A stretch of DNA of 64,000 nucleotides from Escherichia phage JLBYU43. Positions within the stretch are counted from its first letter, which is position 1; the number at the start of each line of letters is the position of its first letter. A program made the position numbers and the translations under genes. Shown piece after piece: positions 27,745-57,667 of the stretch. The stretch lies in the sequence record NC_105512.1, one strand, 5' to 3'. The notes under the pieces are model-generated. The model was given only the letters and a program-made list of their open reading frames with translations, did not search any database and had not been told where the DNA came from.

Positions 27745-27750
27745 ATAATT

Positions 27751-27825
27751 TGGTACCCAATCTAGGTTACGATCCTAGGTCTGAGAGTTATCGGCTCTCT
27801 GTTCTACCATTGAACTAATCGGGCT
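27751..27825 (-). tRNA. tRNA-Ile (GAU)
   Basis: perfect D-arm and anticodon stem, encoded CCA; unusual T-loop ATCGTAA. Confidence 0.5.
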
Positions 27826-28390
27826 TTTTAATACTTTTGGGATCTTTTCCTGTTAAGGCTTTATATCTTTTTCTTAAGCCATTATCAGAATAACCAAGTT
27901 CTTTAGCTGCTCTGACCCAGGAATAGTTAGATACCCAATATTCAATTTGTTCAGCAGATACACTATTATCTTTTACTTTTGACTCGCTATAATGTTTAAG
28001 ACAATAAGTAGACTTACCCGCTATTCTTATTCCACAGACTTTGCAAAAACTTTGTTTGGGCGGAGATATTCCCCTATCAAAACAAGTTTTCTCATAATGA
28101 TCCAGTTTAGACCTCACTATCAGGTTATCTAAATCATTATTAGATATATCTGTATCATCGTGATCTACTTCTAAATCAGAGGTTAATGAGGGTAGATCTT
28201 TATATACTCTCGCTAATGCTCTGCTTAGTAGTATATTTTTAGTTCCATTTTCGACGCCGAAATATTTATACCCAGTAGTATTAGTACGTATACTAAGTAA
28301 TTTATTACTTATTTTGGAATATACTCTACCCTCTCTAGAAATTAAATAATCTGGATACTCTGGTATTTCCTTAAATTCTGTTAAGTCCAT
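27815..28390 (-). CDS. HNH homing endonuclease
   Basis: NUMOD4-like N-terminus and HNH motif (EVDHDD...N). Confidence 0.7.
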   Translation of the reverse strand: MDLTEFKEIPEYPDYLISREGRVYSKISNKLLSIRTNTTGYKYFGVENGTKNILLSRALARVYKDLPSLTSDLEVDHDDTDISNNDLDNLIVRSKLDHYEKTCFDRGISPPKQSFCKVCGIRIAGKSTYCLKHYSESKVKDNSVSAEQIEYWVSNYSWVRAAKELGYSDNGLRKRYKALTGKDPKSIKKPD

Positions 28391-28683
28391 TACATCATCT
28401 CGTCTAGGTAAGAAGTATACTGGTATTTAGCTTCACCAGTTTTAGCTACTTCGACTTCTGTTCTAGGTACTTTTCGTACCAGACCATGAATCATCTTATA
28501 GTTAAGAGACTTAGATGGTTCGTGATCTTTTGGAAAGACTTGTTTAACCGTTACTACTTTGAAGCCTTCACGAGGTGTTAATACAACAACTTGATCACCT
28601 TCTTTAATTTTCCAGGACTCAGGAAATTCATAAGTGTAGCGTTGACCACCAGTTTGGAACACGACAGAAAGATAACGTTTCAT
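28390..28683 (-). CDS. hypothetical protein
   Basis: 97-aa ORF behind an early promoter. Confidence 0.5.
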   Translation of the reverse strand: MKRYLSVVFQTGGQRYTYEFPESWKIKEGDQVVVLTPREGFKVVTVKQVFPKDHEPSKSLNYKMIHGLVRKVPRTEVEVAKTGEAKYQYTSYLDEMM

Positions 28684-28757
28684 TTGGTTTCCCTCTCATT
28701 AATTTATATAAATATTATAACAAGAAATAAGAGAGAAGGCAAATGAATTTTTAAATT

Positions 28758-28832
28758 TGGTGCTCCCACCAGGAGTCGAACCTAGTTCAGATGCTTACAA
28801 GGCAACTGCATCGCCAGCAATGCTTTAGGAGC
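28758..28832 (-). tRNA. tRNA-Thr (UGU)
   Basis: acceptor and T-arm fold, CCA encoded, loop CTTGTAA. Confidence 0.6.
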
Positions 28833-28999
28833 AATAAACCCGTCATTTCAACGGGATTTCTTTTTCAAATACAGGAGACTTATCAGACATTACTGTCATC
28901 GCCAACTGCTGAAGAAACTCGAAGGATAGTGCTAGGCGTTCGTCACCAAGCTCAATCTCTACACGTTTCTTTTGTTTGTCAACCTTTAGTTTCAGGTTA

Positions 29000-29221
29000 T
29001 CAGCCATCTTCGGATTCTAGTTGCTCGGCTACTGCTAGCCAGTCTGGTAAAAGAAACTTAGTACGAAACTCTTCATAAGGTTCTTCTGGATAAAAGCTAA
29101 AATTTGCTTTCTCATCATTTAATAAAACCGAACCGTCTTCCTGTTCATAAGCTCGGTATGTTTCACCAATAATTAAAACTCGTCTATTAGGATTTTTATT
29201 ACGAAACTCAAAAACGTCCAT
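29000..29221 (-). CDS. hypothetical protein
   Basis: 73-aa ORF. Confidence 0.45.
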   Translation of the reverse strand: MDVFEFRNKNPNRRVLIIGETYRAYEQEDGSVLLNDEKANFSFYPEEPYEEFRTKFLLPDWLAVAEQLESEDG

Positions 29222-29236
29222 AACGTTTCCTTAAAT

Positions 29237-29311
29237 TGGTGCGGGATACGAGAGTCGAACTCGTGTCTACTGGTTGGAAGCCAGTTATTCTAGCCACTGA
29301 ACTAATCACGC
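29237..29311 (-). tRNA. tRNA-Gly (UCC)
   Basis: T-arm ACGAG-TTCGACT-CTCGT, CCA encoded, loop CTTCCAA. Confidence 0.6.
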
Positions 29312-29318
29312 ATTCGTT

Positions 29319-29394
29319 TGGCTGGAGAAGGAGGAATCGAACCTACCATTAACGGAGTCAAAGGCCGCTGTGCTAACCGTTACACTACTCTCCA
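29319..29394 (-). tRNA. tRNA-Gln (UUG)
   Basis: U1-A72 acceptor with discriminator G as in Gln tRNAs; loop CTTTGAC. Confidence 0.55.
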
Positions 29395-29400
29395 ATTGTT

Positions 29401-29476
29401 TGGCTGGAGTGCCTGGGATCGAACCAGGAACCTTCGGAGTCAGAGGCCGACGATCTGCCAATTGATCTACACTCCA
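29401..29476 (-). tRNA. tRNA-Gln (CUG)
   Basis: perfect acceptor TGGAGTG/CACTCCA, discriminator G, loop CTCTGAC. Confidence 0.55.
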
Positions 29477-29484
29477 ATAATTCT

Positions 29485-29685
29485 TCACTCTACAGGAACC
29501 GTGGCTATTGGTTCTGGTTCTTCTAGACGTTTGCCTTCATGATCTACACGAATAACACCACAACCTTCACAGATTACAACAGCACCGTAGCCTTCTTTAA
29601 CTTCGGCTTCTGTAATCAGACCAGAAAGATCACCAGTATCTCTACCCCACATATCAATGGAGCATTGTTTGCAGAAATCAGCCAT
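29485..29685 (-). CDS. small zinc-ribbon protein
   Basis: 66 aa with CxxC...CxxC. Confidence 0.45.
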   Translation of the reverse strand: MADFCKQCSIDMWGRDTGDLSGLITEAEVKEGYGAVVICEGCGVIRVDHEGKRLEEPEPIATVPVE

Positions 29686-29710
29686 ATTTTATTTCCTATT
29701 TAAGTTAACT

Positions 29711-29787
29711 TGGGGTGGCTAGTGGAATTCGAATCCACATAGGCCTGATTCACAATCAGGATCATTAACCAATTATGATATAGCCAC
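29711..29787 (-). tRNA. tRNA-His (GUG)
   Basis: extra 5' G (G-1), discriminator C, loop TTGTGAA, CCA encoded. Confidence 0.7.
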
Positions 29788-30255
29788 AATTGAAAACTCG
29801 CAGTGTTAGCGAAACCATCCTCAAATAGCATTTTCTAGAATACTAATCAAGTTATCTCCTATTGCACGCAGCTCAAGACGAGTACGAATTTTCAATTGTG
29901 GCGGCTCTCCGAAACTCATCACACTAACAACTAGTTGATTACACCTGGATTCTCGCCCAGGAAATTCTCTAGAAAGGCGCACCGTTACACTTTGAGCCAT
30001 TGAATGGGATGGTCTCTCATCCCTACTAACTACTTGATCCTTACGATCCGTCGGTTAGCACGAGCAGCGACCCTTCATATATTGTATAGTGCTCAGAAGG
30101 TCATTAGAAGCACTTATCAAGAAGCAGAAGGACTTGAACCTTCACGAGATAGACCATTTATCTCAGCCTCGTTTTCGGGTATCTTATGAGGAGTGGATGT
30201 TCCCCTTACGCCCTTTAGGAAGCCCCGTCTACCGATTCCGGCATACTTCAAGATT

Positions 30256-30350
30256 TGGAGGTAGGTAAGGGGATCGAACCCTTACACCGTATCACTACGA
30301 TCAACCGATTTCAAGTCGGAGTCCAGCGCCAGCCATTGGATTGACCTACC
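30256..30350 (-). tRNA. tRNA-Ser (UGA), long variable arm
   Basis: perfect acceptor GGTAGGT/ACCTACC, CCA encoded, loop CTTGAAA, 95 nt. Confidence 0.55.
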
Positions 30351-30362
30351 GTATAAATTGTT

Positions 30363-30456
30363 TGGCGGAAAAGATGGGAGTTGAACCCATAAGGCGGTAT
30401 TGCTACCACTCAACCGATTTCCAATCGGGTTTAGTCACCAGTCTATTTGCTTTTCC
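30363..30456 (-). tRNA. tRNA-Ser (GGA), long variable arm
   Basis: perfect acceptor GGAAAAG/CTTTTCC, CCA encoded, loop TTGGAAA. Confidence 0.5.
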
Positions 30457-31027
30457 GTTGTTCTGTTAATACTTTTGGGCTTAATCCGGTTAGTTTAGTA
30501 TATCGTCTACGTAAAGTGGACTCTGATACTTCTAGATCTTTAGCTGCCTTAACCCACCCCATTAATAATACCTTTTCAGTTATGTCTTCTAAGGACAATT
30601 CTGGTTTTATTAACTTTCCTGTAGGTTTTGGCTTACAATTTGTACATGTTACTGATCTCTGAAGCATTAGATTTCCACATAAGGGGCAAGGTACTCTACT
30701 ATCAGACCATCCATTATCTTTATTAGTTTTCTTCTGATGTTCTATTTTTGATAAAACTTGAAGATTATCTTTAGATAGATTCAGCCTATCTCTATCCTTG
30801 TGATCTACTTCTAATTCAGGGTCAAATAGATTATATAAGTCCCCAAATACATGAGAAATAATTCGGTGTATAAGTACCGAAGTTTGCTTACCATTTATCT
30901 GTAATTTTACAGCAGGGTATCCATCAACTATATATCTTGATAAAATTTTATTAGTAAATGTAGATAACACATCCCCTGTTTCATTTACTAAATACCCTGG
31001 TGCATCTTTTATTGGTACAAACTGCAT
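30443..31027 (-). CDS. HNH homing endonuclease
   Basis: NUMOD4-like N-terminus, HNH motif EVDHKDRDRLN, Cys-rich zinc ribbon. Confidence 0.7.
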   Translation of the reverse strand: MQFVPIKDAPGYLVNETGDVLSTFTNKILSRYIVDGYPAVKLQINGKQTSVLIHRIISHVFGDLYNLFDPELEVDHKDRDRLNLSKDNLQVLSKIEHQKKTNKDNGWSDSRVPCPLCGNLMLQRSVTCTNCKPKPTGKLIKPELSLEDITEKVLLMGWVKAAKDLEVSESTLRRRYTKLTGLSPKVLTEQRKSK

Positions 31028-31043
31028 ACATTACCCTATAAGT

Positions 31044-31128
31044 TGGTGGGGCTAGGGAGACTCGAACTCCCACGCATTTAAGCTACGGAATCTAAGGCCG
31101 TATTGTCTACCAGTTCCAGCATAGCCCC
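31044..31128 (-). tRNA. tRNA-Leu (UAG), long variable arm
   Basis: perfect acceptor GGGGCTA/TAGCCCC, CCA encoded, loop CTTAGAT. Confidence 0.55.
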
Positions 31129-31133
31129 AAATT

Positions 31134-31207
31134 TGGTGGAGAAAGAGGGAGTTGAACCCTCGTCTTCTGCGTGCAAAGCAGATGTTCTACCATTAAACTA
31201 TATCCCC
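31134..31207 (-). tRNA. tRNA-Ala (UGC)
   Basis: G3-U70 wobble (Ala identity element), loop TTTGCAC, CCA encoded. Confidence 0.6.
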
Positions 31208-31467
31208 AAATTCTTTAGTTTACTAAGGCTATTAGCTCGGTGTGCGTATTACCCTCAGACATTAGCCAGTAGAGGATAACCGCTCTTCACAAACCCGATA
31301 CACTATTCAGTTGCCGCTGAATCTAGTGGACTAATCTAGAACTTCTCCCGAGTCGTAGGGATTGTGCTTTTTGGCAGCCAGTCCTAGGTCGAGCTAATAC
31401 CTTAGTGAACTTTGATGAGGATTTCTCCTCATCAATTTATATAAATATTATAACAAGAAATTAAACA

Positions 31468-31827
31468 TTAAGCAAGTACATTTTTGCAGATTTCTTGTAT
31501 TTCCTTAACGTCACTAACGAAAAGGTAATCAGAGCTTCCAGAGTGCATACTCTGCATAACCACACCACCATCCGGTGCATCTTCTTTCAAAGTAATACCT
31601 AACCAGAACTTGGCAAAACTAGGTGTTACCTCACCTTGACTTGCCTTGAACACATCGCCTTCTGTGATCTCTTGACCAGTGGAGAGTCCCATGTATGGTA
31701 CGTTCAGATCAATATCTTTGTAGAACTCAGCTAGATCTTGCTCGAAATCCCAACCTTTAGAGATAGCGAACTCCATTGTTACATGACCGAAATAGCCTTG
31801 AACCTTGCTTGATAATTGCATTTGCAA
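31468..31827 (-). CDS. hypothetical protein
   Basis: 119-aa ORF. Confidence 0.5.
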   Translation of the reverse strand: MQMQLSSKVQGYFGHVTMEFAISKGWDFEQDLAEFYKDIDLNVPYMGLSTGQEITEGDVFKASQGEVTPSFAKFWLGITLKEDAPDGGVVMQSMHSGSSDYLFVSDVKEIQEICKNVLA

Positions 31828-31846
31828 TTCCTTATTTTGAGTTAAT

Positions 31847-31920
31847 TGGTACTCGGTGATAGAATCGAACTATCGCAACCGCCGTGTAAAGACGGGGTTC
31901 TCCCATTAAACTAACCGAGC
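31847..31920 (-). tRNA. tRNA-Val (UAC)
   Basis: T-arm GATAG-TTCGATT-CTATC, loop TTTACAC, CCA encoded. Confidence 0.55.
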
Positions 31921-31924
31921 AATT

Positions 31925-32002
31925 TGGTGGATTGCCTGGGATTCGAACCCAGAACTGACGGATTAAAGGTCCGCTACTCTTATCCAGTTGAGCTAGCAAT
32001 CC
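31925..32002 (-). tRNA. tRNA-Lys (UUU)
   Basis: perfect acceptor GGATTGC/GCAATCC, loop CCTTTAA (C at position 33), CCA encoded. Confidence 0.5.
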
Positions 32003-32466
32003 AATTTTTCTACTAATAATTTAAAAGCATCTAGTACAGGTACTTCAAACCATTCTCCAGATACTATATAATCTTTAAGAAGATTATGTAATTCTTTCTC
32101 TGTACGTCTTTTATCCGACGAAAATCTGAAATGGTATAGCTTGTAGTCTCTATTAGGTGAATAAGTTTGATAACTTGCTAACCTCTCATTCACATCTATA
32201 GTCATACCTATTTTATACATGCCTGGCCATGCTGGATTACCAATTACATATACAAAACCTTCCGTTATAGGTATTTTATGCTCCCTTTTATACTTTAAGA
32301 GATTTAAGGCTGCCATTCGATAACAGAATCTAAACTCTGAAGTTTTTAACTTACCTTCTTTACCTGAAATTTCGTTATATTTGCTCATATAAGCTCTTAT
32401 GAGCTTATCATCTATAATGAAGTTATCAGGAAGGTTTAAGGCAGATAAAACTTTATTAATTAGCAT
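31993..32466 (-). CDS. T5orf172-domain protein (GIY-YIG-like)
   Basis: motif VYVIGNPAWPGMYKIGMT...ERL...YQTYSP. Confidence 0.55.
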   Translation of the reverse strand: MLINKVLSALNLPDNFIIDDKLIRAYMSKYNEISGKEGKLKTSEFRFCYRMAALNLLKYKREHKIPITEGFVYVIGNPAWPGMYKIGMTIDVNERLASYQTYSPNRDYKLYHFRFSSDKRRTEKELHNLLKDYIVSGEWFEVPVLDAFKLLVEKLDC

Positions 32467-32641
32467 AGACTTCCTTAATAGAATAAACTTTTAAGTAAGG
32501 GTGATTAATACCAAATTCCGCCATCACTTCGTTTTCATCTTTACCGTAATGGGCTAGTGGATACTTCTTACGATCTTTGCTAGAACGCAGATCACTTACT
32601 TTTAAACGAAATAATTTCATTTCGAAATCCTTCTATTAAAT

Positions 32642-32719
32642 TGGAAGCGGGTGTAGGAATCGAACCTACCTCTTTCTAGCTTATGAGACTAGCGATCTCT
32701 ACCAGAGATCTAACCCGCA
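32642..32719 (-). tRNA. tRNA-Met (CAU)
   Basis: loop CTCATAA, T-arm GTAGG-TTCGATT-CCTAC, CCA encoded; 1-72 pair mismatched. Confidence 0.5.
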
Positions 32720-32725
32720 ATTGTT

Positions 32726-32803
32726 TGGTCTCCGTGGGAGGATTTGAACCCCCGACCCTACCGCCCCAAACGGAACGCTCTGGCCAAACTGAGCTACACG
32801 GAG
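32726..32803 (-). tRNA. tRNA-Pro (UGG)
   Basis: perfect acceptor CTCCGTG/CACGGAG, loop TTTGGGG, CCA encoded. Confidence 0.6.
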
Positions 32804-33119
32804 AATATTCTTTGTTAACTCACTTTATAAGATATATTATACAGAGAATTAAGTGAAATAGCAAATGAATTTTTAATAAATTTACTTATTGCGTAGGCCA
32901 CCTGGAGGGTTCAAGCCCCACGGCTGACAAAGAAGTTTGCGAGACTTCTCTTAAATGCCAGAATAGACCCGCCGATCTATCGGAACCTACATAATAAGTA
33001 AACTTTCGTTTACCTACACCTACCTGGTCGGGAGGATTTTCAGCGACTAGAACCGGCCGGAAACTCATCGCCTTGTTTACCCTGTAGTCCCACTATAAGT
33101 GACGCGACCTACAAAGATT

Positions 33120-33193
33120 TGGTGCGGTCGGAGGGAATCGAACCCTCAACTTCTGGTTGGCAACCAAAAATTATACCTTTTAACTACGAACGC
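33120..33193 (-). tRNA. tRNA-Gly (GCC)
   Basis: T-arm GAGGG-TTCGATT-CCCTC, loop TTGCCAA, CCA encoded. Confidence 0.5.
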
Positions 33194-33406
33194 ATAATGA
33201 GTCAATCTAGGTAGGACTTGAACCTACTATCACTTGTGCGGATTTACGAGAACCATTCTTTCACTCGAATCGAACGAGCTTCTACCCTCGGCAAGCTGGT
33301 GTCCCCTCTCCACCACGCTAGAATGATAATTAATGCCTGCTCCTTTGAATCAAGAAGTCCACCCCGGACTTTGGGTCTTTGCAGTACATCACGCTGCTCT
33401 GATGTT

Positions 33407-33483
33407 TGGTACACCCACTAGGACTTGAACCTAGAACCCTCCGCTTAAGAGGCGGTAGCTCTAACCAATTGAGCTATGGATGT
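33407..33483 (-). tRNA. tRNA-Lys (CUU)
   Basis: acceptor ACATCCA/TGGGTGT, loop CTCTTAA, CCA encoded. Confidence 0.5.
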
Positions 33484-33489
33484 ATAATT

Positions 33490-33542
33490 TGGCGGTACTA
33501 AGGGTAATCGAAACCCTACCTCTCCCGTGACAGGGGAGTACC
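33490..33542 (-). tRNA. compact tRNA-like element without D-arm (anticodon loop GUC, Asp-like)
   Basis: 53 nt: acceptor-like stem, hairpin CTCCC-CTGTCAC-GGGAG, T-arm AGGGT-TTCGATT-ACCCT, CCA encoded; no room for a D-arm. Confidence 0.3.
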
Positions 33543-33574
33543 ATTACCAAGCCAGCCCCGATCGCATAATTTAT

Positions 33575-33760
33575 TTACTCAGCTTTGAGTTTTTCGATAG
33601 CTTCCTCAACCTCTTTTAGAGCTTCACGACGCTCTACTTGACCTTGAAGTTCTTCAAGAAGTTCAGCTTTCAGAGCCTTAATAATATTACCACGAACCTT
33701 AATATTATTAATCATATTATCACGATCAGCTTCTAGTCGAGCAATTGCACGAGTTGTCAT
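33575..33760 (-). CDS. small coiled-coil protein
   Basis: 61-aa charged ORF. Confidence 0.35.
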   Translation of the reverse strand: MTTRAIARLEADRDNMINNIKVRGNIIKALKAELLEELQGQVERREALKEVEEAIEKLKAE

Positions 33761-33787
33761 ATCTATTTCCTCAGTTGTTAGTGAAAT

Positions 33788-33873
33788 TGGCGGGCCGTGT
33801 AGGAGTTGAACCTACTTTATCCTTGCGGATACGGATTAACAGTCCGGCGCTTAAACCGTTCAGCCAACGACCC
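33788..33873 (-). tRNA. tRNA with anticodon GUU (Asn-type loop) and long variable arm
   Basis: 86 nt; acceptor GGGTCGT/ACGGCCC, loop CTGTTAA, variable hairpin ATCC-GCAA-GGAT, CCA encoded. Confidence 0.5.
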
Positions 33874-34025
33874 TAAATTTATATTGCTGACTAGGATTTT
33901 CACCTAGACGGAGTTAGCACCGTAGCGTGTAGCGGCATACCTCTCCAAACCGTGCCTCATCTTTCAATTACTGAGGCAGTGTTCCTACGCGTGCCTGAAC
34001 TGTTTTAACAATTCTTTCAGCAAAT

Positions 34026-34101
34026 TGGACGACCGCATGAGATTCGAACTCACATAAAAAGGATTTGCAATCCTTCGCCTAAGCCATTCAGCCAACAGTC
34101 G
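34026..34101 (-). tRNA. tRNA-Cys (GCA)
   Basis: loop TTGCAAA on a perfect AAGGA/TCCTT stem, discriminator U, CCA encoded. Confidence 0.6.
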
Positions 34102-34282
34102 ATTTATCTTGTTTTTCGAGATCTTCAAATTCTAGATTTATAGAATGTCCTATGGACCTAGCATAATAGCTATCTCCAGCATCAGTATCTCTTTCAATTT
34201 GGTACAACCTGTACGCAACGATCGTACCTCTTCTCCTTTTCAGGGAGATACTAATCCTTCTCAGTTAAAGTTGCATATTATC

Positions 34283-34353
34283 TGGCAGGGGTAAAGGTAT
34301 TCGAAACCTTTTCATGGGTTTTGGAGGCCCACTAGCAACCTATGCGTACCCCA
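34283..34353 (-). tRNA. tRNA-Trp (CCA)
   Basis: 3' end CCCCTGCCA as in E. coli tRNA-Trp, loop CTCCAAA. Confidence 0.55.
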
Positions 34354-34362
34354 ATTATTAAT

Positions 34363-34437
34363 TGGCACACCCACGGAGAATTGAACTCCGATTCTCAGAT
34401 TGAAATCCTGATGTCCTAACCATTAGACGATAGGTGC
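34363..34437 (-). tRNA. tRNA-Glu (UUC)
   Basis: Glu-type D-arm GTCTAATGGTTAGGAC, loop ATTTCAA, CCA encoded. Confidence 0.55.
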
Positions 34438-34445
34438 ATTAATTT

Positions 34446-34526
34446 TGGTGGGGGATGGAGGACTCGAACCTCCGCGTGGTATACCCGGTCTACAGCCAGG
34501 CGCCGTCGCCACTGAGCCAATCCCCC
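34446..34526 (-). tRNA. tRNA, probable anticodon GUA (Tyr)
   Basis: perfect acceptor GGGGGAT/ATCCCCC and T-arm, CCA encoded; anticodon arm fold ambiguous. Confidence 0.45.
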
Positions 34527-34632
34527 ATATTTGAATGAAAAGTAAGTCGGTTAAACTCAAAGTGGAATATTTCAGGAAATCCTGACTTTACCCCTAAAAG
34601 CAACTCGCTTAATTACTTCTCATTCAGATATG

Positions 34633-34661
34633 TTTCCAAAGTAGATAACTATTATATCAAG
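34633..34661 (-). promoter_or_regulatory. sigma70 promoter upstream of the tRNA cluster (TTGCTC-17-TATAAT)
   Basis: consensus -10 and 17-bp spacer on the minus strand; a 13-bp-stem hairpin lies immediately upstream at 34662-34701; ~110-nt leader before tRNA-Tyr. Confidence 0.5.
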
Positions 34662-34715
34662 TTTTATGGCACTGAGCAAGTCAGATTTTAAAGAACTTGC
34701 TCAGTGCTATATCAG

Positions 34716-35009
34716 TTAATCAAATGAAGGAGTGACTTTCAAAGTGAATGGAAGTTCGAATACCTCTTCACCTTCATCAGTAACAGTGACTACTCGACCC
34801 TCTAGATTATTCATGCTGATTTCAACATCAGCCGTAGCATCAGGAGCCATACCAGCCTCAATACATTGAGCTTTGATCTCTGGAAGAAGTTCTACATTGT
34901 AGAAATAAAGCCACTCGATCTCACCTTCCCAACCACCCCAGGATTTACATACTGAGCTTTCAATACCAGTTGCTGTAACACGTTTTGACATTCTGATTCC
35001 TCTCATCAA
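34716..35009 (-). CDS. hypothetical protein
   Basis: 97-aa ORF. Confidence 0.5.
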   Translation of the reverse strand: MMRGIRMSKRVTATGIESSVCKSWGGWEGEIEWLYFYNVELLPEIKAQCIEAGMAPDATADVEISMNNLEGRVVTVTDEGEEVFELPFTLKVTPSFD

Positions 35010-35080
35010 TTTATATAACTATTATATCAGAAATTTAAGGCAAAAGGCAAGTACATTTTTAAAAATTCTGTTTGGAGGAG

Positions 35081-35287
35081 TTAAAGACCGGATTCATCAG
35101 CCAGATCTAGACCAATAAGGGTGATTGCCATGATTGCAGCAGCCTGTTCTTTTTCACTCACATCTTTAGCAGACGCGATAATCTTTTCAAATTGTGATTT
35201 AAAATCTGCTACTTCAGCTTCTAAACCAGCTTCAGCAATAATGCCTTTCACCATAATACGCTGCGTCATAATTTCAGGATTTGCCAT
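35081..35287 (-). CDS. hypothetical protein
   Basis: 68-aa ORF. Confidence 0.4.
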   Translation of the reverse strand: MANPEIMTQRIMVKGIIAEAGLEAEVADFKSQFEKIIASAKDVSEKEQAAAIMAITLIGLDLADESGL

Positions 35288-35462
35288 TTGTTTTCTCCAG
35301 TTTCATTTTTAGTATTTTGCAAACAAAGTCAATATCTTCATCCGTGCCTAGATCTCTATCTTCAAGGGTTGCCTTGAAATTTTTTGTTAGTTCCATAAGA
35401 ATAACTTCCCTGGAACGACGTGTTGGCGGAGGTGGATGTCTATACATCTTAATTCCTTAATT

Positions 35463-35537
35463 TGGTGGGTCGGAGGAGAATCTAACTCCTACTCGTTAGC
35501 TTATGAGGCCACCGCTTTAACTTTAAGCTACCGACCC
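35463..35537 (-). tRNA. tRNA with anticodon CAU (Met/fMet/Ile2)
   Basis: perfect acceptor GGGTCGG/CCGACCC, loop CTCATAA, CCA encoded; anticodon stem weak. Confidence 0.5.
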
Positions 35538-35543
35538 TATGTT

Positions 35544-35632
35544 TGGAGGAAGAAGTGGGAATCGAACCCACAAGGCTATATTTCAAACTGACAGATTAGC
35601 AATCTGCTGCAATACCGTTATGCTATTCTTCC
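35544..35632 (-). tRNA. tRNA-Ser (GCU), long variable arm
   Basis: perfect acceptor GGAAGAA/TTCTTCC, loop TTGCTAA, CCA encoded. Confidence 0.55.
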
Positions 35633-35653
35633 GAATTTATAAGATATATTATA

Positions 35654-36172
35654 TTAGAAATTTAGCTTCATAGCAAGAAAATTTTTCAAGTTTTCGGTAG
35701 ACATCTCATCCACATCTACAGGAGAAACAAATCCATTTAATTGTTTAGCAAATTTTTCACCTGCAGGATCATTATCCCCAACAGCTACCAATTTAAAAGG
35801 TAGTAATTTCAATTGCTTTAACAACGCTTTTCCAGGGGAAGAACCCAACATTGCTAGGGCTGGATAACCAGCATTATGTAATGCAACTGCCTTAAATACA
35901 GATTCAGCAATCAATACTACTTTTTCATCTCCATTGAGAGTTTCTAGTCCCCATACACACTGGGTAGTAGAATAAGTAAAATATTTAGCTTCAAAGGGAC
36001 ACTTACCATGACCTTTTGGAGCAGAAGGATTATAAGTTTGATAGCCCCTCAACATCCCAGAGAAATCATATAACGGGACTGTTAGCCATCCTTCCGGACT
36101 TAACCAGCAATGATATTTTTCTGTATCAAATCCCCTAGATAGAAGGTGCTGTGTTAGCTCATCAACACTCAT
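35654..36172 (-). CDS. Toprim-domain protein (primase-like)
   Basis: conserved Glu (LIAES) and DxD (VAVGDNDPAG) typical of DnaG-type Toprim. Confidence 0.45.
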   Translation of the reverse strand: MSVDELTQHLLSRGFDTEKYHCWLSPEGWLTVPLYDFSGMLRGYQTYNPSAPKGHGKCPFEAKYFTYSTTQCVWGLETLNGDEKVVLIAESVFKAVALHNAGYPALAMLGSSPGKALLKQLKLLPFKLVAVGDNDPAGEKFAKQLNGFVSPVDVDEMSTENLKNFLAMKLNF

Positions 36173-36210
36173 ATTTGATCTCCTAGTTAGTTTTATAAAT
36201 ACATTATATA

Positions 36211-36242
36211 GAAAAGCCCGCGCTCTCGGAGGAAACGCGGGC
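36211..36242 (-). terminator. rho-independent terminator
   Basis: AGCCCGCG/CGCGGGCT stem followed by a U-tract on the minus strand. Confidence 0.5.
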
Positions 36243-36267
36243 TTGTTTCGAAGATTACGTGTAACTA

Positions 36268-37284
36268 TTACTTATTACGCATATCCATAATCATCTGGCC
36301 ATCATAACCAGTACCTACAACAGTCTGAGGAACGCCACCCTGATATTTTTCAGCGCGTTTCATATCAACTTCCAGCTGCTTCCAACGAATCATTTCAGGA
36401 GTAATGGTACGTTGCAGAGCGGCGTTAGCTTCAGCTTCTTTCTTAGCTGCGTACAGTTTAGCATCTGCGTCACGTTCGTTAGCTACTGCCATATTTTCAC
36501 GAGCAGAACGATCAGCTTCAGCTTGCTTAACTTTCTGCTGTGCTTCTTGTTCAACACGAGCTAGTTCAGCTTTTGCAGCGTTAACTTGTTCTTCACGAAC
36601 TTTTGTGTTTTGTACCTGTTCCATGATTACCGGTGGCAGAGTAATATCCTGAAGGAATACTTGCTTAACGGTGTAACCATAAGGACGCGCGTACTCTTCT
36701 ACTTCTTGCTGAATAGCGGTTTGCAGTTGAGCCTGAATCTTAGCGTCGAACAGATCTTGTGCTTTTGGTACAGACTTACCAAACTCACGAATCGTAGACA
36801 GCATCTTCTCTTCAACGTACTTGTTCAGAGCTTGATCCTGAGTACCTGCGTTAATACGGTTAATCGGTGCCTTAGAACCATCAAACTGCAACATAACAGT
36901 CAAGTCAACAGTGGATTTAAACTTATCCTGGCTAGGAACCTGAAGTTTATCTAATTTTACAGCAATATCTTTTGTACTAAAAGTATCGAAAGATGCAAAC
37001 GGGTTTACAAGATGGAAACCAGGCAATACTGGATTAGGATCTACTTTACCCAGAAATGTTTGGGTTTTAACCGTACCATCAGAAACAATAGTATATGAAT
37101 TAAAAGCTAGAATCAAGCCTGCTAAACCAACTACAGCACCAATACCCCAACGTTTAATAGTATATGAATTAAAAGCTAGAATCAAGCCTGCTAAACCAAC
37201 TACAGCACCAATACCCCAACGTTTAATAGTACGAATTACTTTCTGCTCAGAAGTCAGTTCTTTCATATTTTTAGTATTAAACAT
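36268..37284 (-). CDS. SPFH/band-7 (prohibitin, HflC-like) membrane protein
   Basis: N-terminal TM anchor, SPFH core, C-terminal coiled coil; contains an exact 69-bp tandem duplication. Confidence 0.7.
   Translation of the reverse strand: MFNTKNMKELTSEQKVIRTIKRWGIGAVVGLAGLILAFNSYTIKRWGIGAVVGLAGLILAFNSYTIVSDGTVKTQTFLGKVDPNPVLPGFHLVNPFASFDTFSTKDIAVKLDKLQVPSQDKFKSTVDLTVMLQFDGSKAPINRINAGTQDQALNKYVEEKMLSTIREFGKSVPKAQDLFDAKIQAQLQTAIQQEVEEYARPYGYTVKQVFLQDITLPPVIMEQVQNTKVREEQVNAAKAELARVEQEAQQKVKQAEADRSARENMAVANERDADAKLYAAKKEAEANAALQRTITPEMIRWKQLEVDMKRAEKYQGGVPQTVVGTGYDGQMIMDMRNK
37087..37231. repeat. 69-bp perfect tandem duplication (2.1 copies)
   Basis: 37088-37156 is identical to 37157-37225; in frame, duplicating the TM segment of the SPFH protein. 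Confidence 0.85.
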
Positions 37285-37318
37285 ATGTTTCCTTTGTTTT
37301 AGTTACAGTTAATAAAAT

Positions 37319-37393
37319 TGGCCGAGGTGACAGGATTCGAACCTGCATAAAGGAATTTAGAAGACTCCTGCCTATCCCTTAGACTACACCCCG
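37319..37393 (-). tRNA. tRNA-Arg (UCU)
   Basis: T-arm GCAGG-TTCGAAT-CCTGT, loop CTTCTAA, CCA encoded. Confidence 0.55.
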
Positions 37394-51694: not shown

Positions 51695-52558
51695 ATGCCG
51701 AAAAAATTAACTCAAGAAGAAGTAGATAAATGCCTAGCCGAACGTGGTTTTACTATGGTGGATAAGCCTTACCAAAATTCTAGGTATAGGCATACGTATC
51801 AGTGTGAATATGGTCATCAATGGACATCTAAATTTGATGCTATTAGGAATGGAAAGACCAATTGTCCTACTTGTTCTATTAATAGCCGTAAACTAGATAT
51901 CGATAAAATTAATACTGTATTACAGGGTAGGGGTATTACATTGTTGGAGGGCTATAAAAATAGTGCCGATATAAATACTAAATTTAGGTGTGTTTGTGGT
52001 CATGAGTGGGCTACTACACTTAATAGTATAATTAATAGAGGTAGTGGCTGCCCCTCTTGTGCTATTAATAAACAAAAACTTAGTATTAATACTATAAACG
52101 ATCGTCTTACTGCTAGGAATATTAGAATAGTAGGTGAATATAGTAATGCGAATATTAAGACCACCTTTCTCTGTGGTGCAGGGCATCAGTGGGAAGCTAC
52201 TCCAGGATCCGTGTTAGGAGGAAATGGTTGTCCTTACTGTAAGTATAGGGATTTAGAAAATACTAAGGTATATATTATGCATAGCCCTTCACATGGTGTT
52301 AAAATAGGAAGGTCTAACAATCCAGAGCGCAGACTTTTACATATTAAATCTAGTAGTCACCTTACTGATCTGGAAGTAATTAAAGTATTTGAAATTGGAG
52401 AATATAGTGATGCTGTTCAAATCGAAAAATTAGCTCATAATTACTTTAAAGAACAGAATTGCCAATACAAAGATTTTGATGGTGCTACGGAATTCTTCAA
52501 TATTGAGCCAGAAGTAGCTATAAAATTTATCGAGGAAATAATCAATGACAGAAAATGA
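51695..52558 (+). CDS. T5orf172-domain protein with three zinc-ribbon repeats
   Basis: three ~47-aa repeats CxxGHxW...GxGCPxC followed by a T5orf172/GIY-YIG-like C-terminus; start at ATG 51695 with a GGAGAAGGGG RBS. Confidence 0.55.
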   Translation: MPKKLTQEEVDKCLAERGFTMVDKPYQNSRYRHTYQCEYGHQWTSKFDAIRNGKTNCPTCSINSRKLDIDKINTVLQGRGITLLEGYKNSADINTKFRCVCGHEWATTLNSIINRGSGCPSCAINKQKLSINTINDRLTARNIRIVGEYSNANIKTTFLCGAGHQWEATPGSVLGGNGCPYCKYRDLENTKVYIMHSPSHGVKIGRSNNPERRLLHIKSSSHLTDLEVIKVFEIGEYSDAVQIEKLAHNYFKEQNCQYKDFDGATEFFNIEPEVAIKFIEEIINDRK

Positions 52559-54371
52559 ACTAATTGAAAATTGCAAAGGTTTACTTACTCTAACTGCTGA
52601 CAAAGACTTGCAGCATAATAATGCTAATAAACCTAGCGAGATGTTTCATACACAGAGGGACTTACTAGCTGGAGAAATCAACAAGTATTTAGTAGCACAA
52701 GAATTACCTAAACATTTATTAGACGCCCATAATCTAGGTAAAATACACATCCATGATATGGATTATAGAGCACAGGGGTACACTAACTGTTGTTTAGTAG
52801 ACCTAGGTGGTATGTTGAAAAATGGTACTAAAATTGGTAATGCGAATATTGAAACTCCTAAATCTATAACTACTGCATGTGCGATTACTGCTCAGATTAT
52901 TGCTCAGGTATCAGGCGCTCAGTATGGGGGTACTTCTATTGATCGTATTGATGAAGTTCTAGCTCCGTATGTTAGGAAGTCCTACAATAAACATCTGGGG
53001 CGTGGCCTACGTTGGCTTAAGGATGAGAGAAAAGCTGCTGTATATGCTACTGAACTTACTGAAAAAGAATGTTATGATGCATTCCAAGCTCTAGAGTATG
53101 AAACTAATTCATTATTTAACTCTAATGGGCAGACTCCTTTTATTACGCTGGGCTTTGGATTAGGGCAGGAGTGGGAGGAAAGGATGATTCAGAAAGCCAT
53201 CCTCCAAAATCGTATTAAAGGTTTAGGTGCTGCTGAGTCAACTCCTATCTTCCCTAAACTAGTATTCTCAGTTAAAGAAGGGTTAAATAAAAATCCAGGT
53301 GATCCTAACTATGATATAAAACAACTAGCACTTGAGTGTTCTGCTACTCGTATGTACCCAGACTATTTAAGTTACGAGAAAGTTGTAGCTGTTACTGGTG
53401 ATTTTAAAGCCCCTATGGGTTGTCGTAGTTTTTTATCTGCCATCCCCTCTGGAGAAATTGCAGGACGTAATAATTTAGGTGTTGTGTCTATCAATCTACC
53501 TATGGTTGCTGCTGAGGCAGATGGAGTTTTTGAAGATTTCTGGGATATTCTAGACAAATATGTGGATGAGGCTTTTGAAGCACATGACTTCTTCTTAAAC
53601 AGACTGAAGAAAGTTAAGGCTAAACAAGCCCCTATTCTTTATATGCACGGTGGTTTTGGTGTACGTTTAGAAGGAGAAGAATATGTATGGCCTATTTTTG
53701 AGGGTAGATCTTCTGTATCTCTTGGGTATATTGGGGTCTATGAGATGTGCCAAATAATGTTTAGTTTACCACAGACTCATAGGGACTGTATTGAATTTAC
53801 AGAGGAAGTTCTCACTCACCTAAAAAATCGTTGCGAAGTTAAAGCTACTGAAACTAATCTTGGGTTTAGCTTGTATGCTACTCCTAGTGAGTCTCTGTGT
53901 AATCGCTTTAATAAACTACTGGAGCGTAGATTCCCAGAGTATTCTTGGTTAGCAGATAAAGGTTATCTTACTAATAGCCATCATTTGGACGTGAGGGAGA
54001 AGGTAGCTCCAGATACTAAATTTGAGTATGAGGCTCATTTTACTAAAATAGCTAATGGTGGTAATATATCATTTGTGGAACTACCTCAAATGAAAAAGTT
54101 CCACAAAGCTCTTGAGTATGTGGTGGATAAGGGGCTAGAATGTAGTCATTATATTGGTGTTAATATACCAATTGATGAGTGCTTCAATTGTGGGTATATG
54201 GGTGAATCTATTGCTTCTGAGCGTGGGTTTGTATGTCCAAGTTGTGGGTCTGAAGAAATAGAGGTTACACGTAGGGTTTGCGGGTACCTGGGATCCCCTG
54301 GCAGTAGGCCTTTCAATTCTGGGAAACAAAAAGAAGTTCTTGGTAGAGTAAAACACTTAAATTTCAAGTAA
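52545..54371 (+). CDS. nrdD: anaerobic ribonucleoside-triphosphate reductase (class III)
   Basis: 608 aa; C-terminal zinc ribbon CxxC...CPxCG and glycyl-radical motif RRVCGYLGS. Confidence 0.85.
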   Translation: MTENELIENCKGLLTLTADKDLQHNNANKPSEMFHTQRDLLAGEINKYLVAQELPKHLLDAHNLGKIHIHDMDYRAQGYTNCCLVDLGGMLKNGTKIGNANIETPKSITTACAITAQIIAQVSGAQYGGTSIDRIDEVLAPYVRKSYNKHLGRGLRWLKDERKAAVYATELTEKECYDAFQALEYETNSLFNSNGQTPFITLGFGLGQEWEERMIQKAILQNRIKGLGAAESTPIFPKLVFSVKEGLNKNPGDPNYDIKQLALECSATRMYPDYLSYEKVVAVTGDFKAPMGCRSFLSAIPSGEIAGRNNLGVVSINLPMVAAEADGVFEDFWDILDKYVDEAFEAHDFFLNRLKKVKAKQAPILYMHGGFGVRLEGEEYVWPIFEGRSSVSLGYIGVYEMCQIMFSLPQTHRDCIEFTEEVLTHLKNRCEVKATETNLGFSLYATPSESLCNRFNKLLERRFPEYSWLADKGYLTNSHHLDVREKVAPDTKFEYEAHFTKIANGGNISFVELPQMKKFHKALEYVVDKGLECSHYIGVNIPIDECFNCGYMGESIASERGFVCPSCGSEEIEVTRRVCGYLGSPGSRPFNSGKQKEVLGRVKHLNFK

Positions 54372-54829: not shown

Positions 54830-55029
54830 AAAACGTAAAACATCTTAAATATCGCTTAATTTACAACGGACGTATGGAAACAGAAGATCTAGCACAGCTA
54901 GCGATCAATTCAGATGAAGTTACAGTTCGTGCTTTGTCCATTGAGAAGCTGCGTGCTTCTTACGAAAATCGTATTATGGAATTAGAGGAGAAACTTTATG
55001 GCATTCTCGAGTCAGAAGCTACCAAGTGA
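54826..55029 (+). CDS. hypothetical protein
   Basis: 67 aa, ATGA overlap with the upstream gene. Confidence 0.45.
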   Translation: MKNVKHLKYRLIYNGRMETEDLAQLAINSDEVTVRALSIEKLRASYENRIMELEEKLYGILESEATK

Positions 55030-55243
55030 AAATGTTAGTCTTATTGACCTGAGTAAACTCAATGTAGAGTTTCAGGGGGTTTTAATGAAGCACTGGGAAA
55101 CTGGCTATAAGGATGGTGTTGAATCCTGTGCTACTATGCTAGAATTTATTGCTAATACCTTAGTGGAGAAAGGCAATAAAGAATTAGCTGAGCTGTTAGA
55201 CAGTATTGGGCAAAACTTCAGAGAGCAGGTGAAAAATGCGTAG
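54998..55243 (+). CDS. hypothetical protein
   Basis: 81-aa ORF. Confidence 0.45.
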   Translation: MAFSSQKLPSENVSLIDLSKLNVEFQGVLMKHWETGYKDGVESCATMLEFIANTLVEKGNKELAELLDSIGQNFREQVKNA

Positions 55244-56012
55244 ACTAATCATTGTTAGTGGTGCTGGTTTAAGTGTTGATAGTGGTATCCGTGCATTCCG
55301 TACAGATACTGCTAGTGGTAAAGCAATGTGGGACGAGTACGATCTAGAAGAGGTGTGTGATATTCATGCTTTTCGTGGCCAGTTCTACTGGAAAACCCAC
55401 GAGTTCTACAACAAGCGTCGTCAGGAGTTGCGGACTGTTGAACCTAACATTGCGCACCTTCGTATTGGGGAATGGTTCCAGCGGTATCCAGAAGCGGTAC
55501 TAAACATTACTACTAACGTAGATGACTTGCTGGAAAGAGCTGGTGTGCCGAAAAGTGAGGTTCTCCACGTTCATGGCTATTTACCGGAAGTTCGTATTAA
55601 GGAATTGCCAGACCGAAAAGAGTACATCCTAGATGTGGGCTATACTGCTATTGATCCTGATGAATTTTATTGGGCAAAGCCTAACGTTGTATTCTTTGGT
55701 GAAGCAGCCCCCGAATATGCTCTGATGCATGCCACTTTTGATAGTCTTACAGCTAACGATATGGTTATCGTGGTTGGGTGTAGTAACCAAGTTATCAACT
55801 TCAACTGGGAACTTTTTCCTGCACTAGCTCGTGGTACTAAGATGATGGTTGTTAACCCAACTATTAACTACTTGGAACAATCCCTGTACGAAGAGCGTGG
55901 TGTTACTGTATGGCGTGCTGGGGCTGCCGAAGTTTTCGGTAACAAACACTTTATTGGCCAGGTAGAAGCTTTTATGGAAGGAACTATTTATGCCCCAGAA
56001 AAGCATGTGTGA
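55236..56012 (+). CDS. SIR2-family (sirtuin-like) NAD-binding protein
   Basis: sirtuin motifs GAGLSVDSGIRAFR, VVFFGE and VVGCS; no CxxC zinc-ribbon insert visible. Confidence 0.65.
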   Translation: MRRLIIVSGAGLSVDSGIRAFRTDTASGKAMWDEYDLEEVCDIHAFRGQFYWKTHEFYNKRRQELRTVEPNIAHLRIGEWFQRYPEAVLNITTNVDDLLERAGVPKSEVLHVHGYLPEVRIKELPDRKEYILDVGYTAIDPDEFYWAKPNVVFFGEAAPEYALMHATFDSLTANDMVIVVGCSNQVINFNWELFPALARGTKMMVVNPTINYLEQSLYEERGVTVWRAGAAEVFGNKHFIGQVEAFMEGTIYAPEKHV

Positions 56013-56182: not shown

Positions 56183-56338
56183 AAGGGTCTATTATGGTTT
56201 GTCAACCTAATCGGTATGATTACCATTTATTCTCTGTTCCTATCTGTTATGTGGGGTAAAGGTGAACTGAAGGTTCCAGTTCCTTTTACTGATGAAGTTA
56301 AAGTCTGGACGTGGGATGCTACTGGTGGAAATAAGTAA
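56183..56338 (+). CDS. small membrane protein
   Basis: AAGGAGGGAG RBS, one TM helix; start moved inside the track ORF. Confidence 0.4.
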   Translation, partial: KGLLWFVNLIGMITIYSLFLSVMWGKGELKVPVPFTDEVKVWTWDATGGNK

Positions 56339-56528
56339 TACTCCTGTGATTTTCCTGGATATTGATGGGGTGCTCAATTCGAGCATCTCTCACCATCATG
56401 CTCGAGATAATGAAAAGCTGTTCTTTGGCAGTGATTGGGTTTATAAGCCATTACTCCAGGCTTTTCAGAACTTCCTCAAACCTTCTCCAATAATGATTGT
56501 TGGGGTATCTTCATGGTTTTCTGTATGA
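56316..56528 (+). CDS. HAD-like fragment (motif I DIDGVLN), N-terminal part
   Basis: ends at an in-frame TGA; continues in the same frame as 56535-56831. Confidence 0.35.
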   Translation: MLLVEISNTPVIFLDIDGVLNSSISHHHARDNEKLFFGSDWVYKPLLQAFQNFLKPSPIMIVGVSSWFSV

Positions 56529-56534
56529 AATGAA

Positions 56535-56831
56535 ATGGAGAACGTTCAGATTATGACCGGACTCGGTTTGATCGATCGTTTTCTTGGTACAACAGATTTT
56601 ACTGGAGGTGGTTTATCTAGGGGTAATTCTGTTTTACGTTTTGTCGAAAAATATAAGCTCAAACATTGGTGTGTGCTGGATGATGCCGGTGCTATGATGT
56701 ATCAGTATCCAACGGTTATAGTCAATGGTAGAACTGGGATAAATCTTCAAGATTTAAGAGCTGTTAGCTATATGTTAGAATTTAGTCCAGATCTTGAAAT
56801 GTGTAAAGCCCTACAGCAATTTAAGGTGTAA
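56535..56831 (+). CDS. hypothetical protein (possible C-terminal part of split HAD-like protein)
   Basis: 98 aa in the same frame as the upstream fragment; contains VLDDAG. Confidence 0.4.
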   Translation: MENVQIMTGLGLIDRFLGTTDFTGGGLSRGNSVLRFVEKYKLKHWCVLDDAGAMMYQYPTVIVNGRTGINLQDLRAVSYMLEFSPDLEMCKALQQFKV

Positions 56832-56833
56832 AT

Positions 56834-57262
56834 ATGTTTAATAATGTATTCTCTAAAGAAGCTAACCCAATTTTGGTTAACTTTTGGCGTACTCTCCCAG
56901 CTAGCCTGTATAATGAGGCTATTAACTCTTTGAAAATATGGTGTGAGAATAACGAAATCTCCTTTGCTTTTAAAGATGATATTGATGAGGCCCCTTGTAT
57001 TGGTTTAATTGTTCAGGTAGAGGAGGGTCTTGAAGAGATTGTCGGCTGGAAAGAGTTAGATGAAATGGGCTTAGTTTTTGCATTAAATTATAAGCTGTTT
57101 ATGCCTGCTAAGCATCGCCTCGTTGTTAACTATAAAACTAGTGAGTCTCCTGGTTTTCAGGTTAATGAACGTGAGGGCTGGTCATATTCGCCCGAGGAAG
57201 TAAATGAAGGGATTCAGAAACTTCGTCGTTTCGGGTATATGATCCCAGGTTTAACTGCTTAA
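56834..57262 (+). CDS. hypothetical protein
   Basis: 142-aa ORF. Confidence 0.5.
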   Translation: MFNNVFSKEANPILVNFWRTLPASLYNEAINSLKIWCENNEISFAFKDDIDEAPCIGLIVQVEEGLEEIVGWKELDEMGLVFALNYKLFMPAKHRLVVNYKTSESPGFQVNEREGWSYSPEEVNEGIQKLRRFGYMIPGLTA

Positions 57263-57271: not shown

Positions 57272-57667
57272 ATGGAACAAGTATTTTGGCGTCAGATAGA
57301 TCCTAGTTTGGTAGAGCGTGCTGAGGGGCTCCTTGCACATTGGTTGGGGGTTGACAAGGTTAGTGTAACATTTCCGTTTACTTCTGTAACAGACCCTAGT
57401 GTAGGTGTATTTGTGGACGAAGATGAAGATGATGGTTGGGAAGCTGACTGGAATGAATTGTCCAGCATGGGCTTGATTGTTGCCATCAACTTCTCTATAT
57501 TCCATCCACGTGGCTTAGCCATTACACGTGACCCCGAAACTGGTGAATCCCCTTATCTTTTGCAAGTAGAAGATGATATTTGGGAGTACACCGAAGATAT
57601 TCTCGAAGAAGCTAAAGGTCAATTAAATCGCATTGGGATCTATGTTCCAGGCCTAAATGATGATTGA
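57272..57667 (+). CDS. hypothetical acidic protein
   Basis: 131 aa, AGGAGG RBS. Confidence 0.5.
   Translation: MEQVFWRQIDPSLVERAEGLLAHWLGVDKVSVTFPFTSVTDPSVGVFVDEDEDDGWEADWNELSSMGLIVAINFSIFHPRGLAITRDPETGESPYLLQVEDDIWEYTEDILEEAKGQLNRIGIYVPGLNDD

What the first reader, a model, noticed from the sequence alone, without database searches (positions are those of the whole stretch)
56316..56831. HAD-like reading frame interrupted by a single in-frame TGA
ORF 56316-56528 carries HAD motif I (FLDIDGVLN) and ORF 56535-56831 continues in the same frame after one TGA codon (56526-56528) and two sense codons, carrying a VLDDAG element. This could be a pseudogene, two genuinely separate proteins, a sequencing error or a recoding event.
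Basis: seen in the sequence. Interest (0 to 1): 0.45.

Follow-up and report, generated by a model that had tools for sequence, protein, structure and literature searches.

The report
Nonsense-mutated phage HAD phosphatase gene
A small phosphatase-like gene of a T5-like phage carries one C-to-T change that turns an arginine codon into a stop codon; every relative examined has the gene in one piece, so this is an ordinary, recent gene knockout (or a single base-calling error), not recoding.

Summary
Window 56316-56528 and 56535-56831 are in one frame, separated by a single TGA (56526-56528). Joined, they form one complete Pfam HAD_SAK_2 domain (E 4e-18). The window is a T5-like phage; exact protein look-up identifies it as Escherichia phage JLBYU43, where the pieces are already annotated as two "putative RNA repair protein" CDSs.

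All 29 relatives whose DNA I read, including T5 (gene T5.105), have an uninterrupted 168-171 aa ORF with Arg or Lys at this codon. The closest alleles have CGA in otherwise identical flanks, so the stop is one C>T transition at 56526. No phage record among 434 matches the 71 nt around the stop exactly. A degenerate pattern carrying the TGA found nothing in the viral, metagenome or genome collections.

The stop lies in a loop between core strand 2 and the next helix. It separates motifs I and II from motifs III and IV, so neither piece holds a whole active site. The second piece has no proper ribosome-binding site. The window has no suppressor tRNA and uses TGA as a normal stop.

Verdict: a lineage-specific nonsense mutation in a dispensable accessory gene. 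A base-calling error is the untestable rival. Interest is low.

The parts
56316..56525 (+). N-terminal 70 codons of the HAD_SAK_2 gene. They hold motif I (D15 at 56358-56360, D17 at 56364-56366) and motif II (S65/S66). Alternative starts are ATG 56292 (the GenBank 78-aa call) and GTG 56325 (aligned with T5's ATG).
   Evidence: Pfam HAD_SAK_2 positions 1-54, E 1.3e-8. PHROG 1818 positions 2-65. 98 % nt identity to the Epseptimavirus-type allele L002. Model strands E11-14 and E60-63.
56526..56528 (+). Premature TGA stop at codon 71, derived from CGA (Arg) by a C>T transition at 56526.
   Evidence: Relatives have CGA (4), AGA (8), AGG (15) or AAA (1) here. L001 and L003 have CGA with identical 30-nt and 31-nt flanks. 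No exact 71-nt match among 434 phage records; the best is 70/71. The TGA pattern gave 0 hits in three collections.
56404..56404 (+). Window-private C>G change (CCA to CGA, Pro30Arg) in the N-terminal piece. It is a second private amino-acid change in the same gene.
   Evidence: Pro in 28 of 28 aligned relatives. Only three private changes exist in the whole gene: this one, one synonymous change at 56477, and the stop.
56529..56831 (+). The rest of the same HAD_SAK_2 frame: codons 72-171 plus TAA. It holds motif III (R102 at 56619-56621) and motif IV (D122/D123 at 56679-56684). In-frame ATGs lie at 56535 and 56553.
   Evidence: Pfam HAD_SAK_2 positions 70-138. PHROG 1818 positions 70-161. Model elements H73-82, E89-92, H100-113, E118-122. 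There is no Shine-Dalgarno match before 56535 (-2.7 kcal/mol, 16 nt away) and only GGAG 11-12 nt before 56553.

Best explanation
The two ORFs are the halves of one gene, the orthologue of phage T5 gene T5.105. It encodes a 171-aa single-domain HAD-superfamily protein of Pfam family HAD_SAK_2, a predicted phosphatase. In this phage (Escherichia phage JLBYU43, a T5-like Demerecviridae member) a single C>T transition at 56526 changed the Arg-71 codon CGA into TGA. Translation therefore ends after 70 residues. That fragment has the nucleophile motif I and motif II but lacks motifs III and IV and three of the five core strands, so the enzyme is expected to be inactive. The downstream 100 codons still look intact because the mutation is recent: the gene has only three private changes. 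At most, trace amounts of full-length protein could arise from the ordinary leakiness of UGA in E. coli, or a C-terminal fragment from weak re-initiation at ATG 56535 or 56553. Neither would be an evolved mechanism. Shown here: the domain continuity, the intact state of all relatives read, the CGA ancestry, the uniqueness of the stop, and its position in the fold. Inferred: loss of activity, the recent date, and that the gene is dispensable.
Against: No sequencing reads are available, so a consensus base error cannot be excluded. I read DNA for only 29 of about 434 related phage records. A record with TGA plus another nearby mismatch would not be caught by the 71-nt identity test, although the protein search found no other N-terminal-only cluster. 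Loss of enzymatic function is inferred from the fold, not measured. No biochemical function has been demonstrated for this family as far as I could find.
Confidence: 0.8

Rival explanations
1. Sequencing or consensus error: the phage actually has CGA at 56526-56528 and an intact gene, and the T is a miscalled base in the deposited assembly.
For: The stop is a singleton. It is seen in one record only and differs from the closest alleles by exactly one base in 71. The gene is otherwise nearly undamaged.
Against: It is a substitution, not a homopolymer indel, which is the commoner assembly error (established knowledge). Compared with phage EH1 over about 64 kb, this is the only annotated-gene counterpart with an internal stop, and there are no frameshift candidates, so the assembly is not error-prone. 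A second private, non-conservative change (P30R at a position that is Pro in 28 of 28 relatives) lies 122 nt upstream. That fits relaxed constraint on a real dead gene better than two independent miscalls.
Confidence: 0.13
2. A functional split or read-through gene. Either the two fragments are made separately and reassemble into an active HAD domain, or the TGA is read through (UGA followed by A, decoded by tRNA-Trp) often enough to supply full-length enzyme. In both cases the locus would stay functional.
For: Both halves are still free of further stops or frameshifts. An in-frame ATG lies 6 nt after the stop and another 24 nt after it, with a GGAG 11-12 nt upstream of the second. UGA is the leakiest stop codon in E. 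coli (established knowledge, not tested here). Shivani and SHSML-45 keep the C-terminal 105 codons as an in-frame fusion to an upstream ORF.
Against: The stop is not conserved in any relative, so no recoding signal can have evolved. Intactness is explained by recency, since there are only 3 private changes. The cut runs through a single alpha/beta sheet and separates motifs I and II from motifs III and IV. ORF 2 has no real ribosome-binding site. There is no suppressor tRNA. TGA terminates 13 other long ORFs. The Shivani and SHSML-45 remnant is 98 % identical to full-length alleles and identical between the two phages, so it is a recent deletion and tells nothing about selection.
Confidence: 0.05
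3. Two genuinely separate, independently evolved genes that happen to be adjacent and in frame.
For: GenBank annotates two CDSs. PHROG 18062 is a 92-aa family that matches only the C-terminal piece.
Against: Each piece matches a complementary part of the same domain profile, in order. Orthologues are single ORFs in 29 of 29 relatives. PHROG 18062 is accounted for by 5'-deleted or truncated annotations such as SHSML-45.
Confidence: 0.02

Closest known systems
Phage T5 gene T5.105 (YP_006933.1) and its orthologues in Tequintavirus and Epseptimavirus
   Same: Same genomic position, downstream of nrdD and the Sir2 gene and upstream of two DUF7415 genes and the origin-binding/helicase gene. About 88-92 % nucleotide identity and 87-95 % amino-acid identity. 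Same motifs.
   Different: T5 and the other relatives read encode one 168-171 aa protein. Here codon 71 is TGA, and there is a private P30R change. The RefSeq name 'Sir2 (NAD-dependent deacetylase)' for T5.105 is a mislabel. The protein hits HAD_SAK_2 and not SIR2; the real Sir2 is T5.102.
Pfam PF18143 HAD_SAK_2 ('HAD domain in Swiss Army Knife RNA repair proteins'), in the HAD phosphatase superfamily
   Same: The joined sequence matches the whole profile above the gathering score. Motif I DxDG, motif II SS, the conserved R102 and motif IV DD are present. The modelled fold matches HAD phosphatases.
   Different: It is a stand-alone domain in a lytic phage, not part of a multidomain RNA-repair protein. 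The 'RNA repair' role is a name carried by the family and by UniRef, and was not tested here. In this phage the domain is truncated by the stop.
Programmed UGA read-through, for example the Q-beta coat/A1 protein (from my own knowledge)
   Same: An in-frame UGA followed by A, with open frame continuing downstream.
   Different: In Q-beta the stop and its extension are conserved and required. Here the stop occurs in a single record and relatives have a sense codon, so nothing indicates an evolved mechanism.

Membership tests
HAD superfamily / Pfam HAD_SAK_2 (PF18143) | Profile match above the curated gathering score across the whole domain | tested here: met
   The joined sequence scores 66.5 bits against a cut-off of 27.5, over profile positions 1-138 of 139. 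The N-terminal piece alone scores 35.7 bits. The C-terminal piece alone scores 22.8 bits, which is below the cut-off.
HAD superfamily / Pfam HAD_SAK_2 (PF18143) | Motif I, DxD nucleophile at the end of strand 1 (hhhDxDx[T/V]) | tested here: met
   IFLDIDGVL, with D15 and D17 invariant or nearly so in alignments A1 and A2. It follows model strand E11-14.
HAD superfamily / Pfam HAD_SAK_2 (PF18143) | Motif II (Ser/Thr after strand 2), motif III (Lys/Arg before strand 4) and motif IV (acidic DD after strand 4) | tested here: met
   S65/S66 follow E60-63. Invariant R102 sits at the start of H100-113. D122/D123 end E118-122. The assignment of R102 as motif III is by position only.
HAD superfamily / Pfam HAD_SAK_2 (PF18143) | Rossmann-like HAD fold | tested here: met
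HAD superfamily / Pfam HAD_SAK_2 (PF18143) | Mg-dependent phosphatase activity, or a role in RNA end repair | not testable with these tools
   I found no biochemical data on this family.
Programmed stop-codon read-through / recoding site | The stop codon is conserved at the site across related genomes, with the downstream frame under selection | tested here: not met
   0 of 29 relatives have a stop there. There is no exact match in 434 phage records and 0 pattern hits in three collections.
Programmed stop-codon read-through / recoding site | A dedicated decoding agent (suppressor tRNA) or genome-wide reassignment of TGA | tested here: not met
   None of the 23 tRNAs has anticodon tca. TGA ends 13 of 63 ORFs of 120 aa or more.
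Naturally split (two-gene) enzyme | Orthologues encoded as two conserved genes, each with its own start and RBS | tested here: not met
   Orthologues are single ORFs. ORF 2's best Shine-Dalgarno pairing is -2.7 kcal/mol at 16 nt for ATG 56535 and -6.4 at 11 nt for ATG 56553. Neighbouring genes show -6.4 to -12.4 kcal/mol at 3-9 nt.

The most novel reading that the evidence does not exclude
The interrupted gene is still functional in this phage. One possibility is basal UGA read-through, in a UGA-A context, giving enough Trp-71 full-length phosphatase. The other is that the C-terminal 92-98 aa fragment is re-initiated and has an activity of its own. The in-frame retention of the same C-terminal segment in the Shivani and SHSML-45 deletion variants hints at the second possibility.
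Probability: 0.05. Interest if true: 0.4.

Novelty: already known. Interest (0 to 1): 0.08.

Why it matters
It matters little biologically. It is one more case of an accessory phage gene knocked out by a point mutation. It does show that T5.105-type HAD genes are dispensable for plaque formation, at least under isolation conditions, which agrees with the independent frameshift and deletions seen in relatives. The practical value lies in annotation. The two CDSs in JLBYU43 should be flagged as one disrupted gene. The widespread RefSeq and PHROG label 'Sir2 (NAD-dependent deacetylase)' on this HAD family is wrong.

Tried and rejected
- **Suppressor tRNA or TGA reassignment.** ARAGORN found 23 tRNAs, none with anticodon tca. 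TGA ends 13 of 63 long ORFs. Rejected.
- **Conserved stop in other genomes.** A degenerate TGA-containing pattern gave 0 hits in viral contigs, metagenome contigs and genome contigs. A 71-nt BLAST gave no exact match.
- **Exact look-up of the encoding contig for ORF 2.** Nothing on record. The cluster look-up did identify the source phage.
- **Literature.** Searches for JLBYU43, HAD_SAK_2, PF18143 and T5.105 returned nothing. A guessed PMC id for the paper I believed defines the 'Swiss Army Knife' RNA-repair domains was not held.
- **C-terminal remnant in Shivani and SHSML-45 as evidence of independent function.** The remnant is identical between the two phages and 98 % identical to full-length alleles, so it carries no information on selection.
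- **Genome-wide stop-crossing screen against EH1.** It gave many hits, but all except the HAD gene were off-frame or antisense segments, or had the stop in the untranslated leader.

Full report
**1. The observation**

Translating window 56316-56831 in one frame gives 70 sense codons (MLLVEISNTPVIFLDIDGVLN...VGVSSWFSV). Then comes TGA at 56526-56528, then NE, then MENVQIMTGLGL...CVLDDAGAMMYQ...QQFKV, ending with TAA at 56829-56831. The description and coordinates are correct.

The two pieces are not a chance juxtaposition. Against Pfam, the first piece matches HAD_SAK_2 (PF18143) profile positions 1-54 and the second matches positions 70-138. The joined sequence matches 1-138 of 139 with E 4.3e-18, 66.5 bits against a gathering score of 27.5. 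PHROG 1818, a 161-position profile, is likewise covered end to end only by the joined sequence.

**2. Where the window comes from**

The region is 88-94 % identical to about 440 T5-like phage genomes (Demerecviridae, Markadamsvirinae; Epseptimavirus and Tequintavirus). An exact-sequence look-up shows that both ORFs are proteins UGO55794.1 (78 aa) and UGO55688.1 (98 aa) of Escherichia phage JLBYU43. Each is labelled 'putative RNA repair protein' and each is known from one contig only. The split is therefore already in GenBank as two CDSs.

The local gene order is nrdD (52545-54371), small ORFs, Sir2 (55236-56012, Pfam SIR2), a small ORF, the HAD gene, two paralogous DUF7415 genes (56834-57262 and 57272-57667), and then the 929-aa origin-binding/helicase gene. 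This matches T5, where the HAD gene is T5.105.

**3. What relatives have at the stop**

I read the DNA of 28 IMG/VR relatives (T5 among them) and of the closest phage record, SP76. All 29 have an uninterrupted 168-171 aa frame. The codon aligned with the TGA is AGG in 15, AGA in 8, CGA in 4 and AAA in 1.

The alleles closest to the window in this part of the gene (L001 = LVR16A, L003 = SH9) have CGA, with 30 nt upstream and 31 nt downstream identical to the window. The stop is therefore one C>T transition at 56526.

A BLAST of the 71 nt around the stop found 434 phage records. None is identical, and the best are 70/71. A degenerate pattern that requires TGA at this codon found nothing in IMG/VR, in the metagenome contigs or in 185,579 species genomes.

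In the 5.8-billion-protein search, the homologues are 153-184 aa, apart from one 117-aa truncation (SP_Thor). No other N-terminal-only fragment appeared. The 90 % cluster of the N-terminal fragment holds only JLBYU43 and a frameshifted PMBT26 protein.

**4. Age of the lesion**

Pairwise dN/dS between the window gene and its relatives is 0.05-0.11, in both halves. This reflects long-term purifying selection on the intact gene.

Only three nucleotide states are private to the window among the 29 sequences:
- the stop itself;
- a synonymous CTT>CTC at 56477;
- CCA>CGA at 56404 (Pro30Arg), at a position that is Pro in all 28 relatives.

Two damaging changes out of three, and no further decay, fit a recent inactivation. 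The numbers are too small for a statistical claim.

**5. Position in the fold**

The order of elements is:
- strand 11-14 (motif I, D15/D17);
- a small hairpin at 34-43;
- helix 44-54;
- strand 60-63 (motif II, S65/S66);
- a loop containing residue 71;
- helix 73-82;
- strand 89-92;
- helix 100-113 (invariant R102);
- strand 118-122 (motif IV, D122/D123).

The stop thus cuts a single alpha/beta sheet. It separates motifs I and II from motifs III and IV, so neither fragment has a complete active site. Loss of activity is an inference from this.

**6. Tests of the more interesting readings**

*Recoding.* None of the 23 tRNA genes in the window has anticodon tca. TGA terminates 13 of 63 ORFs of 120 aa or more, including Sir2 immediately upstream. 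No relative conserves the stop.

*Separate genes.* ATG 56535 has no Shine-Dalgarno complement (best -2.7 kcal/mol, 16 nt away). ATG 56553 has only a GGAG 11-12 nt upstream (-6.4 kcal/mol). Neighbouring genes show -6.4 to -12.4 kcal/mol at 3-9 nt. Basal UGA leakiness, or re-initiation 6 nt after the stop, could give trace products. That is generic bacterial behaviour known from the literature. It was not tested here and is not an evolved feature.

*Sequencing error.* This cannot be excluded without reads. However, the change is a substitution. A comparison with phage EH1 over about 64 kb found no other annotated-gene counterpart with an internal stop in the window. The three other candidates had the stop in the untranslated leader. 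There were no frameshift candidates.

**7. The gene is lost repeatedly in relatives**

- PMBT26 has an extra A in an A-run, which shifts the frame.
- Shivani and SHSML-45 share a deletion. It removes Sir2, the small ORFs and HAD codons 1-66, and fuses 24 codons of an upstream ORF in frame to W67.
- DT57C retains only the 3' end.
- SP_Thor and SE3 have shortened proteins.

These lesions explain PHROG 18062, a 92-aa 'family' that covers only the C-terminal part. They support the view that the gene is a dispensable accessory gene.

**8. Comparison with what is known, and verdict**

The locus is a member of a catalogued family (PF18143; the T5.105 orthologue group) that carries an ordinary nonsense mutation. 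It fails the defining tests for programmed read-through and for a naturally split enzyme.

- Best explanation: a recent, lineage-specific CGA>TGA knockout, confidence about 0.8.
- Main rival: a base-calling error, about 0.13.
- Functional read-through or fragment complementation: about 0.05.

Novelty is 'already known' and interest is low. The useful by-products are annotation corrections. The JLBYU43 pair should be marked as one disrupted gene. The 'Sir2' label on T5.105-type proteins is a mislabel.

Noticed in passing
window 56328-56831: The HAD gene is mosaic. Up to about 56650 it is 98 % identical to an Epseptimavirus-type allele (L002). From about 56655 it is 98-100 % identical to the T5-type allele (L008, L009). 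This implies a recombination breakpoint near 56652-56663, about 130 nt downstream of the stop.
   Followed up: partly
L039 (T5) 2089-2595 = T5.105; PHROG 18062: RefSeq and PHROG label this HAD_SAK_2 protein 'Sir2 (NAD-dependent deacetylase)' in T5 and many relatives. It has no SIR2 match. The true Sir2 is T5.102, which corresponds to window 55236-56012 (Pfam SIR2, E 1e-23). The label looks like a propagated mis-annotation.
   Followed up: yes
L038 (Shivani) 1129-1518; L027 (SHSML-45): The two phages share a deletion. It removes Sir2, the small ORFs and HAD codons 1-66, and joins the first 24 codons of the upstream ORF (homologue of window 54998-55243) in frame to W67 of the HAD, at a CAC|TGG junction. 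The remnant is identical in both phages and 98 % identical to full-length alleles.
   Followed up: partly
L037 (PMBT26), aligned with window ~56646-56652: PMBT26 has one extra A in an A-run (GTCGAAAAA in the window, GTAGAAAAAA in PMBT26). This shifts the frame of the same HAD gene. It is either an independent lesion or a homopolymer sequencing error.
   Followed up: partly
L041 (EH1) 6179-6718: Phage EH1 lacks the Sir2 gene and the small ORFs between the upstream ORF and the HAD gene, but keeps an intact HAD ORF (180 aa as annotated). The Sir2 block is therefore variably present in this group.
   Followed up: no
window 27669-37393 (- strand): There is a cluster of 23 tRNA genes, with none for Trp, Phe or Asp. 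The related phage EH1 has all three annotated. The tRNA complement varies between close relatives.
   Followed up: no
window 56834-57262 and 57272-57667: The two genes just downstream are paralogues: 31 % identity over 124 aa, E 1e-19. Both match Pfam DUF7415 with two stretches each. They correspond to T5.106 and T5.107, whose function is unknown.
   Followed up: partly
window 56404: There is a private Pro30Arg change (CCA>CGA) in the N-terminal HAD fragment, at a position that is Pro in 28 of 28 relatives. It is a second non-conservative private change in the same gene.
   Followed up: yes
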